Shown here: positions 1,486 to 5,689 of the stretch, piece by piece
Numbering within the stretch: position 1 is the stretch's first letter
How the letters are laid out: each line of letters begins with the position of its first letter
Notes under the pieces: generated by a model
The model's database searches: none
What the model saw: only the letters and a program-made list of their open reading frames with translations
What the model was told of the DNA's origin: nothing
From: a virus
Strand: one strand, 5' to 3'
Virus genome (UHGV): UHGV-1354897
DNA: 61,496 bases
Made by a program: the position numbers and the translations under genes

Positions 1486-3828
1486 ATGGAACTGTTTCCC
1501 GCTGAAATTAAAGCTTTCCCACAATGGGCGGTCGCCGATGCGGATAAAAAGCCTCTTGTATGGGACAACGATATTGGACGTTTGATGGCGGCGGACGTTA
1601 CCGATCCGGATATGCTTATGACGTTTGAAGCTGCCAAAGGTTGCGCCGCGCATTTCAACAAACCTTATATTGGCTTTGTGCTTACTGCACAAGACCCGTT
1701 CACCTGCATCGATCTGGATGTGAAGAACGCGACCAATGAACCTGATCCCAAGAAGCACACGACGCCGGAACAGTTGCGCCGCTTCGAACAGATCATGACT
1801 GCGTTCGATACTTACACCGAAGTAAGTCGCTCAGGTTTGGGTGTCCACCTGTGGTTAAGAGGTAACATCGGTAAAGGTCGCCGACGTGATGGTGTCGAGG
1901 TTTATAGTCAGGAGCGTTTTATTATCTGCACGGGCAATCCTGTTTATAACAAACCAGTTGCAGAACGTGATCATTATCTTACTATGCTTGTGAATGAAAT
2001 TGATCTTCAGCGCAAGACATATGAAATTGAACTGGTAGAAAAAGATCCGGTAGAAGACGATGCGACTATTCACCAGCGAGCACTTGAAGCGGACAACGGG
2101 GATAAGTATGCACGCCTATTCAATGGCGAATGGGTTGAAATGGGATTCCCTTCCCAGTCTGAAGCAGACCTTGCCCTTATTTCTATGTATGCATTCTACA
2201 CAGAAAGTAATGAGCAATGCCGTCGTCTGTTCCGTTACAGTGCACTGGGCAAACGTGAGAAGGCTAATAAGAACAATGTTCATATTGACCGTTGTTTGCG
2301 CATGTGCCGCGGTCGTATGGAGCGTGAGCGCATTGCCCAGGAAAACGTAGCGGCGCTGGCGCGGGATTACGCTGCTCGTATGCAAGCCGCACACAGTGCA
2401 ATGCAGCAGGTAACGGAAATGCCTGTGATTGTCGAAACAACACAGGGGCAGACAGTAGTTGCGGAAAGTACATCCATTGATGCAACAGCTATTGACTGGC
2501 CACCGGGACTCGCTGGGGAGCTTGCGAAGTACATCTACAAAGCATCCGTCCGACCAGTAAAAGAAATCTCTATTGTGACTGCGCTCGGCTTTATGGCTGG
2601 GGTATGCGGGAAAGTATGGCAGATTCCGCAATCCGGTCTTAATGGTTATTTTGTCTTAATTGCTCGTTCTGGTGTTGGTAAAGAGACGTTGAACAGTGGG
2701 CTGTCTAATATAGTTAGCCAGATTCAGGACCAGTTTCCGCAGATTCATAGCTTTGTATCTTTTGACAGATGCGCTTCTGGATCTGCACTGCGTAAATCTT
2801 TTGCAGACAAACAATCTTTTATCAACTTGAACGGTGAGTTTGGTAAGATTATCAAAGCAATGGCAACGGCTCCAGCAGGATCGCCGATGCAAAGTTTCAA
2901 GAATGACCTTACCGATGTTTATCAAAAGTCCGGTCAGATGTCTATCGTTGGTGGTATGTCTTATTCTGATAAGGCTAATAATACTGAAGCTCAACAAGGT
3001 GTGGCATATAGCATCATGGGCGAAACGACACCGGATACGTTCTTTGAAGCATTAACCCGTGAAATGATGGAGGACGGATTCTTATCCCGTTTCCATGTTG
3101 TACGCTATGAAGGTGATCGACCACCTTTAAACAAAAATCAGCAGACTACAATGGATCAGCATTTGAAGGACATGGTGTGCCATCTTGTTAACCACACTTT
3201 AGTAACAATGGCAAAGCATCAGAGTATTGAAGTACAGTTTAGCCCGGATGCGGAAACATTATGCGATCAGTTTAACGATGAATGTGATCGCAATATTAAC
3301 GCAACCAAAGACGAAGCGATCCGTCAGCCGTGGAACCGTGCTCACCTGAAGGTCTTGCGACTTTCTGCCTTGTTAGCTGTGGGTGAGAACTGGATCAATC
3401 CGGTGGTACAAACCTATCATGTGCAATGGGCTTTGGACTTCGTGCGTCATGGGCAGGATATTATTATGAAGGAATGGCATAGCGGAGGCATTGGGACTAA
3501 TGATGAAGCTCGTATCCGTACTATGTGTCAGGTCTGTGTGAATTATCTAACTAAAGACTGGGTGAAAGTTAAACGTGTAGATTTGCGCAAAGAAGGTATT
3601 ATCACGCGGGGTGATATTACTACGCGTCTTGCAAGTAAGTCCGCGTTTAAAAACTATCATCACGGATTATCCGCTGCAATCGAGTCTACAATCAAGGAGA
3701 TGGTTGCTATGGGTGCACTTGTTCCGGTAACACGGGAGGAGACTATTAAACTGGGATTTACTGGGGCAGCTTGGCGCATTACGCAAGATGTTGAAGGAAT
3801 TATGGCAAACTTAGGTGAAGAGGAATAA
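1486..3828 (+). CDS. DNA primase-helicase (AEP prim-pol N-terminal domain plus P-loop NTPase)
   Basis: AEP motifs CIDLDVKN and SGLGVHLWL; Walker A-like ARSGVGKET; 780 aa. Confidence 0.75.
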   Translation: MELFPAEIKAFPQWAVADADKKPLVWDNDIGRLMAADVTDPDMLMTFEAAKGCAAHFNKPYIGFVLTAQDPFTCIDLDVKNATNEPDPKKHTTPEQLRRFEQIMTAFDTYTEVSRSGLGVHLWLRGNIGKGRRRDGVEVYSQERFIICTGNPVYNKPVAERDHYLTMLVNEIDLQRKTYEIELVEKDPVEDDATIHQRALEADNGDKYARLFNGEWVEMGFPSQSEADLALISMYAFYTESNEQCRRLFRYSALGKREKANKNNVHIDRCLRMCRGRMERERIAQENVAALARDYAARMQAAHSAMQQVTEMPVIVETTQGQTVVAESTSIDATAIDWPPGLAGELAKYIYKASVRPVKEISIVTALGFMAGVCGKVWQIPQSGLNGYFVLIARSGVGKETLNSGLSNIVSQIQDQFPQIHSFVSFDRCASGSALRKSFADKQSFINLNGEFGKIIKAMATAPAGSPMQSFKNDLTDVYQKSGQMSIVGGMSYSDKANNTEAQQGVAYSIMGETTPDTFFEALTREMMEDGFLSRFHVVRYEGDRPPLNKNQQTTMDQHLKDMVCHLVNHTLVTMAKHQSIEVQFSPDAETLCDQFNDECDRNINATKDEAIRQPWNRAHLKVLRLSALLAVGENWINPVVQTYHVQWALDFVRHGQDIIMKEWHSGGIGTNDEARIRTMCQVCVNYLTKDWVKVKRVDLRKEGIITRGDITTRLASKSAFKNYHHGLSAAIESTIKEMVAMGALVPVTREETIKLGFTGAAWRITQDVEGIMANLGEEE

Positions 3829-3855
3829 ATAAAGGGCCTTTCGGCCCTTTATTGT
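3829..3855. terminator. bidirectional intrinsic terminator
   Basis: Palindromic hairpin AAAGGGCC-TTTC-GGCCCTTT with flanking A/T runs, between convergent genes. Confidence 0.7.
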
Positions 3856-4079
3856 TAGTTGAGATAGTAATCGTCGACGTCGTACCTTGCCATAATTTCG
3901 GATGCTTCCGCTGCACTTTCCGCTTCTTCATAAGCTTGCTCAGCGTCGTCATAAGTACCGTAATACATCCAACCTTCACCCATTGGACGGATATATGCTT
4001 CAAATTTGCCAGTACGCGGGTGACGTACAACTTTATAATCCGCGCCCATTGTGCTATATACTTTATTCAGCATGACCAT
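3855..4079 (-). CDS. hypothetical small protein on the opposite strand within the early block
   Basis: 74-aa ORF with GGAGG RBS; acidic C-terminal half; ends at the bidirectional terminator. Confidence 0.6.
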   Translation of the reverse strand: MVMLNKVYSTMGADYKVVRHPRTGKFEAYIRPMGEGWMYYGTYDDAEQAYEEAESAAEASEIMARYDVDDYYLN

Positions 4080-4182
4080 TTTGTAATCCTCCGTTTTGTT
4101 TATGAGTTAATAGTACAGTTAGACGGATCAGATGTAAAGGCAAATCGTGCTATTTCATAGATGCATTTCAAGTCTAAAGTTG

Positions 4183-4210
4183 TTGCACACATCGTAAGTC
4201 CTGCTATACT
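4183..4210 (+). promoter_or_regulatory. sigma70-like promoter candidate (TTGCAC, 16-nt spacer, TATACT)
   Basis: -35 at 4183..4188, -10 at 4205..4210, upstream of a run of small early genes. Confidence 0.45.
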
Positions 4211-4237
4211 TACAGCATAAAGTTAACGGAGGGAACA

Positions 4238-4312
4238 ATGTTCGAGCTTTTAAAATTATTTGCGGGTGCTATTTTCGTAGCTGGTTATTTCTGGTTTATG
4301 TACATTCTGTGA
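4238..4312 (+). CDS. micro-ORF encoding a 24-aa hydrophobic peptide (MFELLKLFAGAIFVAGYFWFMYIL)
   Basis: GGAGGG RBS 4 nt before ATG; stop overlaps the RBS of the next gene; below the ORF-track size cutoff. Confidence 0.35.
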   Translation: MFELLKLFAGAIFVAGYFWFMYIL

Positions 4313-4320
4313 GGTGTAAG

Positions 4321-4536
4321 ATGAAAATTGAATTAGAAGTTATTGAAGGTCAGGCTCCGGTTGATGAATTTGGTCACATTGACAATGATGTAATTATTAT
4401 CGGATTAGACGGTTCTTTACATGCTGTAGGTAATCAAAATGTAATGGGAGGTCTTTGTAATTGTTGCAGTGATAATTTTCCAAAACACAATCGATATATT
4501 CTCATCCCTAAAAATATCAAAGACTGTGAGGAATGA
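4321..4536 (+). CDS. hypothetical small early protein
   Basis: ORF with GAGGTG RBS before ATG at 4321. Confidence 0.6.
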   Translation: MKIELEVIEGQAPVDEFGHIDNDVIIIGLDGSLHAVGNQNVMGGLCNCCSDNFPKHNRYILIPKNIKDCEE

Positions 4537-4539
4537 AAA

Positions 4540-4773
4540 ATGAGTAAATTAAAAACAACTATCTACACTAAAAAAGCTATTGAAGGCTTTATGCAACATT
4601 TGTCTGAATTGGGTCTAAGCGTCTATGGACCTTGTATGAAGGAAGAGATTGAGTATCCTTCCCTTATGGATTACAATGTTGACGATATTATTAATCGGCG
4701 CAAATGTATTCAGGATGGGAGCTTATTCTATATAGATGATATTACATTAATTGATCACGAGGATGACAAATGA
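4540..4773 (+). CDS. hypothetical small early protein, acidic C-terminus
   Basis: 77-aa ORF, tightly packed with neighbours. Confidence 0.6.
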   Translation: MSKLKTTIYTKKAIEGFMQHLSELGLSVYGPCMKEEIEYPSLMDYNVDDIINRRKCIQDGSLFYIDDITLIDHEDDK

Positions 4774-4961
4774 ATCTTAAACTATTAAAGAATTTATATT
4801 GGACAGTTTGGACTATCCTTACAGTTATTCTTATCGTATATGTTAATAAATCAACTGTCCTGGGAATACTTTATGTAATAGCATATGGTATTAGCTGTAC
4901 TATTGGTTCTGCTGCTTTAGTTGTTATTTCTTATGAGGGTGATAAAGGGGAAGAAAAATGA
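4770..4961 (+). CDS. hypothetical small membrane protein
   Basis: 63-aa ORF with two hydrophobic helices; start overlaps previous stop. Confidence 0.55.
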   Translation: MNLKLLKNLYWTVWTILTVILIVYVNKSTVLGILYVIAYGISCTIGSAALVVISYEGDKGEEK

Positions 4962-5272
4962 GTATTGTAAACACTATCTGTGAGGCAATTTATGCGGAGC
5001 TTATCCGTATTGAAACTAATCTGCATAAAGAAGGACGAAAAGAAATCAAAAGAATTCTTGTAGATTTCCCTACAGCAATGGATATTCGAAGAGATGGTCA
5101 TTTATACTATTGGGGTAGTGAATACATCGATGAATGCGACGGAGGGCATTGTATCCACATGGCTATTATGAATTACCCTATTGTTCCAACCGATCAAGTA
5201 ACAGGTTTTGAGTTGATGTTAAATGATGGTACTTTAGCACCAAAAGCGGCAAAGGGAACCGCGCAAAATTGA
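4958..5272 (+). CDS. hypothetical protein
   Basis: 104-aa ORF, start overlaps previous stop. Confidence 0.6.
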   Translation: MSIVNTICEAIYAELIRIETNLHKEGRKEIKRILVDFPTAMDIRRDGHLYYWGSEYIDECDGGHCIHMAIMNYPIVPTDQVTGFELMLNDGTLAPKAAKGTAQN

Positions 5273-5289
5273 AGCTTGCCATTCAAGAC

Positions 5290-5584
5290 TGCATCCTTTA
5301 AGATAACCACAGTTAACGAGGTTTAACAATTTAACAACATTAACTTAGTGAACGATGCTTAACTCAAGCCCTTGAAAGCGGTAGCTGTACCTCCTTACAG
5401 CAACTACTTTCGCTGGGCTTCCTGGAGCGGACAGGGTAAACCCGCAACTTACTGAACGATGTGAACGATGTTTAACGCGACGGCGCCAGATGTACCAAAC
5501 CGTCACCAGCCTTTGGCGAGGCTGTACAAGTAGGCCAGGATAGACGAAGACGGCAGTCAAAGTAAGCTATCCGACAATCAAGAG
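5290..5584 (+). ncRNA. candidate structured noncoding RNA region
   Basis: About 300 nt without a convincing ORF, GC-richer than flanks, with TGAACGATG-yTTAAC repeated near 5348 and 5456, ending at a strong terminator. Confidence 0.25.
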
Positions 5585-5617
5585 AGCCCAGGAATCCTTA
5601 TGCCTGGGCTTTTTTGT
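5585..5617 (+). terminator. intrinsic terminator
   Basis: Hairpin AGCCCAGG...CCTGGGCT followed by TTTTTT. Confidence 0.8.
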
Positions 5618-5689
5618 TCCTTGTGATCAACAGAACTTCAATATAAAATTCTTTATGAAGTGTTTTACATTAAAGTTATGGAGACAAAC

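What the first reader, a model, noticed from the sequence alone, without database searches (positions are those of the whole stretch)
3855..4312. Antisense small gene plus a 24-aa hydrophobic micro-ORF in the early region
A 74-aa gene with acidic C-terminal half is transcribed against the flow of the early block and ends at a bidirectional terminator. Just downstream, a promoter candidate drives a 24-aa hydrophobic peptide with a strong RBS, coupled to the next small gene. Both are below or near annotation thresholds and fit typical anti-defence or membrane-acting early peptides.
Basis: seen in the sequence. Interest (0 to 1): 0.4.

Follow-up and report, generated by a model that had tools for sequence, protein, structure and literature searches.

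The report
Two-way promoter cassette with hidden micro-gene
In this Seurat-like E. coli phage, a short two-way promoter region drives a small acidic protein built on a plant-type (AP2) DNA-binding fold on one side and, on the other, a real but almost never annotated 24-amino-acid membrane peptide that heads a block of ever-changing accessory genes; the functions of both are still untested.

Summary
The window is a Seuratvirus (Queuovirinae) genome.

**24-codon ORF, 4238-4312 (+).** It is a genuine gene.
- It is intact and exactly 24 codons in all 38 matching phage records and 36 fetched loci (one of these has ATA instead of ATG).
- There are 15 peptide variants, with pN/pS below 1 in 28 of 28 pairs and a third-codon-position excess of changes.
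- A conserved extended -10 promoter and a GGAGG site precede it.
- Only one GenBank record annotates it.
- It encodes one aromatic-rich membrane helix.

**Cassette.** At least ten unrelated gene families follow its stop at a fixed 7-9 nt gap. The roughly 500-bp cassette is 93-100% identical between phages whose flanks are only about 50-59% identical. Its right part also occurs in two Felix-O1-like phages.

Anti-defence activity is untested. I rate this a new member of known kinds, of moderate interest.

The parts
3828..3853 (.). Two-way intrinsic terminator hairpin (11-bp stem, 4-nt loop) shared by the primase gene (+) and the 74-aa gene (-)
   Evidence: Found by scan. Folds at -16.9 and -17.3 kcal/mol, with 0 of 200 shuffles as stable on either strand. 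Annotated as a terminator on both strands in Seurat, SA126VB and SA80RD.
3855..4079 (-). Gene for a 74-aa acidic stand-alone AP2-fold protein (pI 4.4, net charge -7). Equivalent to CPT_Seurat59, phiG7_81 and phrog_22269.
4087..4092 (-). Shine-Dalgarno GGAGGA of the 74-aa gene, 7 nt before its ATG
   Evidence: Read from the sequence. CCTCC is conserved in nine of the ten aligned relatives, the exception being L081 (CTCCTTG).
4110..4138 (-). Leftward sigma-70-type promoter: TTTACA, 17-nt spacer, TACTAT
   Evidence: Found by scan, 9 of 12 positions matched. The -10 TACTA core is invariant or nearly so in ten relatives; the -35 is less conserved.
4158..4178 (+). Conserved block TAGATGnnTTTCAnGTCTAAA just upstream of the rightward -35 element. 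Candidate UP element or operator; its function is unknown.
   Evidence: Conserved in the aligned relatives except yong3, where only part is kept. Single copy in the window.
4183..4210 (+). Rightward promoter: TTGCAC (-35), 16-nt spacer, TGcTATACT (extended -10)
   Evidence: Read from the sequence. In ten divergent relatives T, A, T, A and the final T of the -10 hexamer are invariant, TG is at least 90% conserved, and the GTTGC of the -35 is conserved. The generic scan did not call it because the -35 matches only 3 of 6 positions.
4216..4232 (+). 5' leader with Shine-Dalgarno site, CATAAAGTTAACGGAGG. It is an inverted copy of the leftward leader at 4088-4104.
   Evidence: Inverted repeat I1, 82% complementary. 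There are only these two exact copies in the window. AAAGTTAA is conserved in all ten relatives except for an A-to-G change at its first base in STP-SP5 and L081. The leader and ORF are not unusually structured as RNA (z=+1.5).
4238..4312 (+). Gene for a 24-aa hydrophobic, aromatic-rich micropeptide, MFELLKLFAGAIFVAGYFWFMYIL. F8, I12, F13, Y17, F18 and W19 are invariant.
   Evidence: ORF. Present and 24 codons long in 38 of 38 matching phage records and in 36 fetched loci, giving 15 peptide variants. pN/pS is 0.04-0.61 in 28 of 28 pairs. Variable sites by codon position are 5/5/17, p=0.0015. GRAVY 1.66 with 33% aromatic residues. Annotated only in CSP1, as CSP1_063.
4311..4323 (+). Junction: GAGG Shine-Dalgarno site overlapping the micro-ORF stop, an 8-nt gap, and the ATG of the next gene
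   Evidence: Read from the sequence. The gap is 7-9 nt in 35 of 35 loci, whichever of at least 10 unrelated genes follows.
4321..4536 (+). First variable cargo gene (71 aa, no family match), the first of three small genes before the conserved 104-aa gene at 4958-5272
   Evidence: ORFs. No Pfam or PHROG match. Replaced by other genes in relatives.

Best explanation
Positions 3828-4323 form a conserved two-way, host-type (sigma-70) promoter cassette of Seuratvirus phages. It expresses accessory genes in both directions from the gap after the primase gene.

**Leftward.**
- A short transcript carries one small gene and stops at the hairpin it shares with the primase gene.
- Here that gene encodes a 74-aa acidic protein that is a homologue of the AP2 domain. 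In phages this domain is normally the DNA-binding module of HNH homing endonucleases. This protein has no nuclease domain.
- I infer that it is a domain taken over from such an endonuclease, and that it now binds a specific macromolecule without cutting it.
- I lean slightly (about 55:45) towards a protein target, for host take-over or counter-defence, rather than DNA. The whole family is acidic and keeps only one invariant arginine of the DNA-contacting set.

**Rightward.**
- The transcript begins with a translated 24-codon gene.
- Its product is a single aromatic-rich hydrophobic helix. At 24 residues it is too short to leave the ribosome before termination, so it must enter the inner membrane after translation.
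- Selection acts on the amino-acid sequence itself. I therefore infer that the peptide works in the membrane, either by associating with a host or phage membrane protein or by forming small assemblies.
- Its stop overlaps the ribosome-binding site of the next gene at a fixed 8-nt spacing. The promoter, leader and micro-gene therefore also act as a constant expression head for a hypervariable set of cargo genes.

**Shown:** both genes are real, the fold is assigned, the promoter, terminator and junction are conserved, the surroundings are mosaic, and part of the cassette has moved to another phage family.

**Inferred:** membrane insertion, translational coupling, expression timing, and every biochemical activity.
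For: **Genome identity.** The window is a Seuratvirus; the closest record is phiG7.

**The 74-aa gene.**
- It shows coding-type substitution, with variable sites 15/10/31 by codon position, p=6e-4.
- Its profile matches the solved AP2 domains of WRI1 (E=4e-6), ERF096 and AtERF1.
- An exhaustive HMM search of 1.84 billion proteins gave 39 hits. All 10 non-family hits that I sampled carry Pfam AP2, with E values from 5.5e-17 to 2e-64.
- The AlphaFold model has pLDDT 78 and shows strands followed by a helix.
- Net charge is -7, and -2.5 to -12 in other family members.

**The micro-ORF.**
- 38 of 38 matching phage records carry it.
- It is always 24 codons long, across 15 peptide variants.
- pN/pS is below 1 in 28 of 28 pairs.
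- Changes are biased to the third codon position, p=0.0015.
- The control ORF at 4100-4192 fails both tests.
- No RNA structure or Rfam family explains the conservation.
- It persists in yong3 and SWJM-02, where a different antisense gene sits opposite.

**Cassette and cargo.**
- Promoter elements are conserved in ten divergent relatives.
- At least ten unrelated gene families follow at a 7-9 nt gap.
- The cassette is 93-100% identical where the primase 3' end is 58-59% identical and the downstream sequence about 50%.
- The right part is present in two Felixounavirus genomes at about 93% identity.
Against: - There are no expression data of any kind. Promoters, start sites and translation are inferred from sequence and conservation.
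- One metagenomic relative (L089) has ATA in place of the micro-ORF's ATG.
- Conservation around the micro-peptide helix shows no single conserved face (moment 0.05, permutation p=0.97), so a simple one-face helix-helix contact is not supported.
- The AP2 match is below Pfam's own threshold (17.3 against 33.3 bits), and Foldseek against the PDB found nothing significant.
- The structure model rests on a four-sequence alignment.
- Much of the near-identity among close relatives reflects recent shared ancestry or exchange of the cassette. The strongest evidence for selection therefore comes from only about six divergent lineages.
Confidence: 0.7

Rival explanations
1. The micro-ORF is only a leader (upstream ORF). 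What matters is that ribosomes translate it and are delivered to the next gene; the peptide itself has no function.
For: The stop overlaps the next gene's ribosome-binding site, and the 7-9 nt gap is kept whichever of at least 10 genes follows. The recombination joint sits at the ATG of the next gene.
Against: The amino-acid sequence is under purifying selection, with pN/pS 0.04-0.61 in 28 of 28 pairs. Synonymous sites are near saturation in several pairs while six residues are invariant and the length is fixed. Each downstream gene also has its own Shine-Dalgarno site, so it does not obviously need coupling.
Confidence: 0.1
2. The 74-aa protein is a sequence-specific DNA-binding regulator. 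It binds the shared intergenic region, for example the conserved block at 4158-4178, and controls its own promoter and/or the rightward accessory operon.
For: It is homologous to a DNA-binding domain. It is transcribed divergently from a conserved control region. The sheet half is basic in the window's version, at +2.6. R31, which corresponds to AtERF1 R162, is invariant (residue numbering from my own knowledge of 1GCC). Phage AP2 domains are known to be re-used as repressors: CasPRs (bioRxiv 10.64898/2026.02.23.707548), and co-option of endonuclease DNA-binding domains is discussed in PMC10448857.
Against: The family is acidic overall. In the STP-SP5 and P0017 branch even the sheet half is acidic, and K25, R19 and R22 are lost. 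Only 2 of the 7 AtERF1 base-contact residues are identical. The cassette and micro-ORF persist unchanged where the AP2 gene has been replaced by unrelated genes, in yong3 and SWJM-02. The conserved block is only partly kept in yong3, which lacks the protein, but it is kept in SWJM-02, which also lacks it.
Confidence: 0.3
3. The 74-aa gene is a decaying fragment of an HNH-AP2 homing endonuclease gene with no function of its own.
For: AP2-only ORFs next to broken HNH ORFs are known in phage ICP1 (gp115-gp116; PMC10448857). Intact HNH-AP2 endonuclease genes insert immediately after the micro-ORF in STP-SP5, SA126VB and L050, and one lies next to the remnant in SWJM-02.
Against: The gene is under purifying selection and its length is kept (65-74 aa) over family members down to 39% identity. 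It has its own promoter, Shine-Dalgarno site and terminator. There is no HNH remnant upstream on its strand, and no HNH-AP2 homologue elsewhere in the window.
Confidence: 0.05
4. Conservation of 4238-4312 reflects a DNA or RNA element (a recombination site, homing-endonuclease target or RNA structure), not a coding sequence.
For: The 3' end of the ORF co-varies with the presence of an endonuclease gene downstream: all 3 loci with the endonuclease have YW[LV]-TAG endings and none of the other 33 does. This suggests that the 3' end of the ORF is a homing target.
Against: Changes are biased to the third codon position, the reading frame and length are preserved at 69-73% nucleotide identity, and 9-11 synonymous changes occur in several pairs. 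The RNA is no more structured than shuffled sequence (z=+1.5). There is no Rfam match.
Confidence: 0.03

Closest known systems
AP2/ERF DNA-binding domain (Pfam PF00847), as found at the C-terminus of phage HNH homing endonucleases
   Same: Detectable sequence homology over residues 14-57, including the G-K-F, I-R and G-T-Y...AE.A motifs. The predicted topology, a beta-sheet followed by a helix, is the same.
   Different: There is no nuclease domain. The protein is strongly acidic, with a long acidic helix (residues 46-72). It has an extra, highly conserved N-terminal segment, MVMLNKVYS. Most DNA-contact residues are not kept. Its score is below Pfam's gathering threshold.
CasPR anti-CRISPR repressors (CapR + AP2; bioRxiv 10.64898/2026.02.23.707548)
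   Same: A phage-encoded protein that re-uses an AP2 domain for a non-nuclease role in an accessory locus.
   Different: CasPRs need a cysteine-rich CapR zinc-finger domain and conserved AP2 arginines, and they are found in prophages of Bacillota. The 74-aa protein has no cysteine and no CapR domain, and it belongs to a virulent coliphage.
Bacterial small single-helix membrane proteins (for example the 27-aa YohP, PMC7549839; reviewed in PMC12648545) and type I toxin peptides
   Same: Size of 19-35 aa, a single hydrophobic helix, missed by gene callers, and a need for post-translational membrane insertion.
   Different: There is no sequence similarity. The peptide is phage-encoded and is the first cistron of an accessory operon. 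No antisense RNA partner is evident. Aromatic content is unusually high (33-42%), and the peptide has almost no charged residues (none in yong3).
PeSL promoter-early stem-loop cassettes of T4-type phages (named from my own knowledge; not checked in a paper here)
   Same: A conserved promoter-containing element that bounds a hypervariable set of small accessory genes and marks recombination joints.
   Different: It is single copy in the genome, has no stem-loop, works in two directions, and carries a protein-coding micro-gene.

Membership tests
AP2/ERF domain (PF00847) | Score above Pfam's gathering threshold for the AP2 model | tested here: not met
   17.3 bits against a cut-off of 33.3; E=0.0059 over residues 17-59.
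AP2/ERF domain (PF00847) | Profile-level homology to bona fide AP2 domains | tested here: met
   The family profile hits solved WRI1 AP2 (E=4e-6), ERF096 (0.03) and AtERF1 (0.04). In the exhaustive search of 1.84 billion proteins, 10 of 10 sampled hits are strong Pfam AP2 proteins.
AP2/ERF domain (PF00847) | Three-stranded antiparallel sheet packed against a C-terminal helix | tested here: met
AP2/ERF domain (PF00847) | Conserved DNA-contacting Arg/Trp residues (AtERF1 R150, R152, W154, E160, R162, R170, W172; numbering from my own knowledge of 1GCC) | tested here: inconclusive
   By the HMM alignments, R19 and R31 match R150 and R162, and Y39 replaces W172. The other positions differ. Only R31 is invariant in the family.
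HNH-AP2 homing endonucleases | N-terminal HNH nuclease domain on the same polypeptide or as an adjacent fragment | tested here: not met
   The protein is 74 aa with no HNH match. Upstream on its strand there are only promoters and short ORFs with no family match. There is no homologue of the STP-SP5 or SWJM-02 endonucleases anywhere in the window.
CasPR (CapR + AP2) anti-CRISPR repressors | CapR zinc-finger domain with conserved cysteines | tested here: not met
   The 74-aa sequence contains no cysteine. The defining features are taken from bioRxiv 10.64898/2026.02.23.707548.
Small single-helix membrane proteins | One hydrophobic segment long enough to span the membrane | tested here: met
   Residues 7-24 have GRAVY 1.9-2.3 in all variants, and each variant has at most two charged residues.
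Small single-helix membrane proteins | Demonstrated translation and membrane localisation | not testable with these tools
   Only evolutionary evidence for translation is available.
Type I toxin-antitoxin peptides | Overlapping or adjacent antisense RNA antitoxin; toxicity on expression | tested here: inconclusive
   The scan found no promoter-like site on the opposite strand within 4238-4330. Toxicity cannot be tested here.
Attenuation leader peptides (for example the pheA leader) | Alternative terminator and antiterminator structures between the leader ORF and the regulated gene | tested here: not met
   Only 8 nt separate the stop from the next ATG, and the RNA is not structured (z=+1.5).
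PeSL-type mobile regulatory cassettes | Many dispersed copies per genome, each with a promoter and a stem-loop | tested here: not met
   The leader, promoter and conserved-block motifs each occur once, or only as the local inverted pair, in the 61.5-kb window.

The most novel reading that the evidence does not exclude
The promoter-leader-micro-gene unit is a portable, two-way expression platform. It is exchanged between phage lineages, and even between families (Seuratvirus to Felixounavirus). Its 24-aa aromatic-rich peptide is a new class of phage membrane effector, for example one that blocks superinfection or a membrane-anchored defence system. The 3' end of the micro-gene doubles as the homing site of an HNH-AP2 endonuclease. 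The neighbouring nuclease-less AP2 protein might then be a co-opted binder of such sites.
Probability: 0.2. Interest if true: 0.6.

Novelty: new member of a known kind. Interest (0 to 1): 0.4.

Why it matters
**Annotation.** A 75-nt gene lies below the usual gene-caller length limit (my own knowledge: Prodigal's minimum is 90 nt). It is missing from 37 of 38 deposited genomes, and three of those carry a wrong call over it. It is nevertheless one of the best-conserved coding elements of the accessory region of a phage genus that is well represented in the BASEL collection.

**Testability.**
- The family gives a clean case for studying phage micropeptides. It is 24 residues long, has six invariant positions, and culturable hosts and phages are available.
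- The fixed 'stop, 8 nt, ATG' joint in front of at least ten different cargo genes shows how accessory genes can be swapped while keeping ready-made expression signals.
- The AP2 assignment adds a nuclease-free, acidic AP2 protein from a virulent coliphage to the recent examples of endonuclease DNA-binding domains being re-used.

**Limit.** None of this overturns current ideas, and no function has been demonstrated.

Tried and rejected
**No informative match**
- Pfam, PHROGs and PADLOC gave nothing for the micro-peptide or the downstream small genes.
- Foldseek of the 74-aa model against the PDB found nothing significant. Against viral models it found only uncharacterised small phage proteins and one putative HNH endonuclease.
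- Rfam and RNA folding gave nothing for the leader or micro-ORF region.
- Papers on Seuratvirus (CSP1 lysis suppression, KpAvs2/Ksap1, daunorubicin) do not concern these genes. A full-text search for the peptide strings found nothing.

**Wider family searches**
- IMG/VR added one new contig with the micro-ORF.
- JGI and ENA metagenomes added 12 true members among 63 pattern matches.
- None of 71 pattern matches in 185,579 bacterial and archaeal genomes was a true member.
- E. coli complete genomes and plasmids gave no match.
- No counterpart exists after the primase gene in Nonagvirus JenK1, Providencia phage PSTCR4 or Pseudomonas phage JG054.

**Homology tests that failed**
- The antisense genes of JenK1, PSTCR4 and yong3 show no detectable homology to the AP2-like family.

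**Ideas tested and dropped**
- One-sided conservation on the micro-peptide helix is absent.
- Repeated copies of the promoter or leader elsewhere in the window are absent.
- The STGCTAT motif is clustered: 4 of its 18 window copies lie within 222 nt. Only two of these copies are conserved, and one of them is the -10 region, so I make no claim for an operator.
- A Phe-attenuation leader is rejected because there is no room for a terminator.
- The 30-aa ORF at 4100-4192 (-), annotated in some relatives, is rejected as a gene.
Full report
**What the window is.** The region matches Escherichia phages of the genus Seuratvirus (subfamily Queuovirinae). phiG7 is the closest at 98.9% identity, followed by Seurat, CAjan, slur01 and several BASEL phages. 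The finding lies directly after the 780-aa primase gene (1486-3828, +). It sits at the head of a run of small plus-strand genes that ends with a conserved 104-aa gene (4958-5272).

**Check of the observation.**
- The 74-aa ORF occupies 3855-4079 on the minus strand.
- Its C-terminal 31 residues carry a charge of about -10. The first 43 carry +2.6.
- An 11-bp, GC-cored hairpin (3828-3853) lies between its stop and the primase stop. It folds at -16.9 kcal/mol on the plus strand and -17.3 on the minus strand, better than all 200 shuffles on either strand. T-rich tracts follow on both strands.
- Three GenBank records annotate this hairpin as a terminator on both strands.
- The 24-codon ORF is at 4238-4312, with GGAGG 5 nt upstream of its ATG.
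- An extended -10 element TGcTATACT (4202-4210) lies 16 nt after TTGCAC (4183-4188).
- The stop codon overlaps GAGG, and the next ATG follows 8 nt later at 4321.

**The 74-aa gene is real and is an AP2-fold protein.**
- *Annotation and selection.* It is annotated as hypothetical in its relatives and forms phrog_22269. Among 24 distinct nucleotide versions, variable sites fall 15/10/31 by codon position (p=6e-4).
- *Family size.* The family is small. A word-indexed search of 5.8 billion proteins found four clusters. An exhaustive HMM search found three more divergent members of 66-74 aa. All of these that could be traced lie after the primase gene of Seuratvirus-like contigs.
- *Sequence evidence.* Pfam gives a sub-threshold AP2 match (E=0.006, 17.3 against 33.3 bits). 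A profile of the family matches the solved AP2 domains of WRI1 (E=4e-6), ERF096 and AtERF1. In the exhaustive search of 1.84 billion representatives there were 39 hits. The non-family hits are multi-domain proteins, and all ten that I sampled carry Pfam AP2 at E from 5.5e-17 to 2e-64.
- *Differences from known AP2 proteins.* There is no nuclease domain, no HNH remnant and no cysteine.
- *Charge and contact residues.* The protein is acidic (pI 4.4). Other family members range from -2.5 to -12 in charge, and in one branch even the sheet half is acidic. Only R31 of the DNA-contacting set is invariant.

**The micro-ORF is a real gene.**
- *Presence.* tblastn finds it in all 38 matching phage records: 36 Seuratvirus-type records and two Felixounavirus. 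With metagenomic and SRA-derived contigs I collected 36 loci, 25 distinct nucleotide versions and 15 peptide variants.
- *Form.* Every copy is exactly 24 codons long, with F8, I12, F13, Y17, F18 and W19 invariant.
- *Divergent copies.* The most divergent copies are in STP-SP5, yong3, L081, L087 and L089. STP-SP5 and yong3 share only about 69-73% nucleotide identity with the window, yet all five keep frame, start position and stop position.
- *Selection.* pN/pS is 0.04-0.61 in all 28 pairs of eight representatives. Synonymous differences approach saturation in several pairs. Variable sites fall 5/5/17 by codon position among close relatives (p=0.0015).
- *Negative control.* The 30-aa minus-strand ORF at 4100-4192, which some records annotate, is absent from six of ten divergent relatives. 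It shows no codon-position bias (6/5/4).
- *Other explanations excluded.* RNA structure and Rfam do not account for the conservation.
- *Peptide properties.* The peptide is very hydrophobic (GRAVY 1.7-1.9) and 33-42% aromatic. It has at most two charged residues.
- *Annotation status.* Only CSP1 annotates it, as CSP1_063. KurtStettler, KS_A8 and SeppeHuegi instead extend the downstream gene across it in another frame. That frame puts the excess of variable sites at its first codon position.
- *Exception.* L089 has ATA in place of ATG, with the rest of the ORF intact.

**Control region.** An alignment of ten divergent intergenic regions shows several conserved elements.
- The rightward -10 hexamer has five of six positions invariant.
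- The TG of the extended -10 and the GTTGC of the -35 are conserved.
- A block TAGATGnnTTTCAnGTCTAAA lies just upstream.
- The leader motif AAAGTTAA is conserved.
- The leftward promoter (TTTACA, 17 nt, TACTAT) keeps its -10 core but not its -35.
- The two 5' leaders are inverted copies of each other (CATAAA-N4-ACGGAGG), and these are the only two such sites in the window.

**A conserved island with changing cargo on both sides.**
- *Island of identity.* In phages whose primase 3' end is only 58-59% identical to the window's, and whose downstream 300 nt are about 50% identical (unrelated), the terminator, 74-aa gene, intergenic region and micro-ORF are 84-100% identical.
- *Variable cargo on the right.* At least ten unrelated gene families directly follow the micro-ORF in 35 loci. 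The gap between stop and ATG is always 7-9 nt.
- *Endonuclease insertions.* One of these cargo genes is an HNH-AP2 homing endonuclease, found in STP-SP5, SA126VB and L050. All three loci, and no others, have the altered micro-ORF ending YW[LV]-TAG. This is what co-conversion or target-site immunity at a homing site would produce (inference).
- *Variable cargo on the left.* yong3 carries a 102-aa gene in place of the AP2-like gene. SWJM-02 carries a 127-aa gene with its own copy of the leader, next to a seven-codon remnant of the AP2 gene.
- *A recurrent slot.* Nonagvirus JenK1 and Providencia phage PSTCR4 also have a small antisense gene after the primase gene. Neither has a micro-ORF, and neither gene is homologous to the 74-aa protein.
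- *Transfer between families.* In the two Felixounavirus genomes the right part of the cassette, with the micro-ORF and the window's own first cargo gene, is about 93% identical to the window.
- *Absences.* The cassette is absent from bacterial genomes, E. coli genomes and plasmids.

**How it most likely works.**
- *Shown.* There are two real genes, a two-way terminator, two conserved divergent host-type promoters, a fixed junction to variable cargo, and evidence of mobility.
- *Inferred, rightward unit.* The rightward transcript starts near 4217. Its first cistron makes a 24-residue helix that is too short to emerge from the ribosome before release. It must therefore enter the membrane after translation, as shown for the 27-aa YohP (PMC7549839). 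Because selection acts on the residues themselves, the peptide has a function of its own in the membrane. Termination next to the following ribosome-binding site probably also helps to load ribosomes onto whichever cargo gene is present.
- *Inferred, 74-aa protein.* I read it as cargo of the leftward slot, an AP2 module taken from a homing endonuclease. The precedents are CasPRs (bioRxiv 10.64898/2026.02.23.707548) and the re-use of endonuclease domains discussed in PMC10448857. Whether it binds DNA or a protein remains open. The family's acidity and loss of contact residues tilt me slightly towards a protein target.
- *A negative result.* I found no one-sided conservation on the micro-peptide helix, so a simple single-interface model is not supported.

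**Novelty and verdict.**
- The 74-aa gene was known as a hypothetical protein. The AP2 assignment is new, but it places the gene in a known kind.
- The micro-gene is essentially unannotated, has no described family and is not mentioned in the searchable literature. It still belongs to the known class of tiny membrane proteins.
- The cassette behaviour is of moderate interest to people who study phage genome mosaicism.
- Nothing here is functionally demonstrated.
- Interest 0.4; new member of a known kind.

Noticed in passing
window 5273-5659: An ORF-free gap of about 390 nt before the 165-aa gene, whose homologues are annotated as a Holliday-junction resolvase (yong3) or hit Pfam PDDEXK_15. 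It holds several GTGAACGATG(N)TTAAC-like direct repeats, folds well as RNA (-109 kcal/mol, z=-3.3) and ends in a terminator-like hairpin with a T-run (5579-5616). It is a candidate iteron-type origin or structured non-coding RNA. PSTCR4 has a similarly placed gap of about 640 nt (L021 3640-4280).
   Followed up: partly
L003 (Salmonella phage SWJM-02, Felixounavirus) 1960-2850; also SPJ41: The right part of the cassette lies between the DNA polymerase/homing endonuclease genes and the DNA ligase gene of a Felix-O1-like myovirus, at about 93% identity. It comprises the first 7 codons of the AP2 gene, both leaders, the promoters, an identical micro-ORF and the window's first cargo gene. A 127-aa gene (phrog_4301) with its own duplicated leader is inserted in the antisense slot. 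This is apparent transfer between phage families.
   Followed up: partly
L004 2181-2818 (STP-SP5), L014 801-1231 (SA126VB), L050: An HNH-AP2 homing endonuclease gene (truncated in SA126VB) sits immediately after the micro-ORF. Only these loci have the micro-ORF ending YW[LV] with a TAG stop. This suggests that the 3' end of the micro-ORF is the homing site and that these alleles are immune variants.
   Followed up: partly
L089 (Logan SRR15237817), micro-ORF start: ATA replaces the ATG of the micro-ORF, directly after an in-frame TAG. The other 23 codons and the Shine-Dalgarno site are intact. This could be a non-canonical start, a recent loss or an assembly error.
   Followed up: no
window 4100-4192 (-); relatives L016, L017, L019 663-755: A 30-aa ORF annotated as a gene in SA80RD, KS_S4 and Dru_SM1 lies across both promoters. 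It is absent from 6 of 10 divergent relatives and shows no codon-position bias, so it is probably a false call. KurtStettler, KS_A8 and SeppeHuegi instead extend the downstream gene over the micro-ORF in another frame.
   Followed up: yes
L023 3495-3725 (JenK1 gp57), L021 3460-3639 (PSTCR4), L005 1570-1878 (yong3): The position directly after the primase gene holds a small antisense gene in several related genera, but the genes are unrelated to one another. It appears to be a recurrent antisense cargo slot.
   Followed up: partly
protein P0004 (ENA contig of 1218 nt): A 45-aa predicted protein joins the N-terminus of the Seurat58-type cargo gene (MDQQLFNIALQAIVDTAKQAY) to the C-terminal helix of the 74-aa protein at a shared QAY motif, although the two genes lie on opposite strands. 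It is a likely assembly chimera or a rare inversion recombinant.
   Followed up: no
window 4770-4961 (+): The third cargo gene of the same operon encodes a 63-aa protein whose sequence shows two hydrophobic stretches that could span the membrane. The operon would then carry more than one small membrane protein.
   Followed up: no
window 4088-4104 and 4216-4232: The 5' leaders of the two divergent genes are inverted copies of one another (CATAAA-N4-ACGGAGG), each placed 5 nt after its -10 hexamer. This suggests that the two-way promoter arose by inverted duplication.
   Followed up: partly
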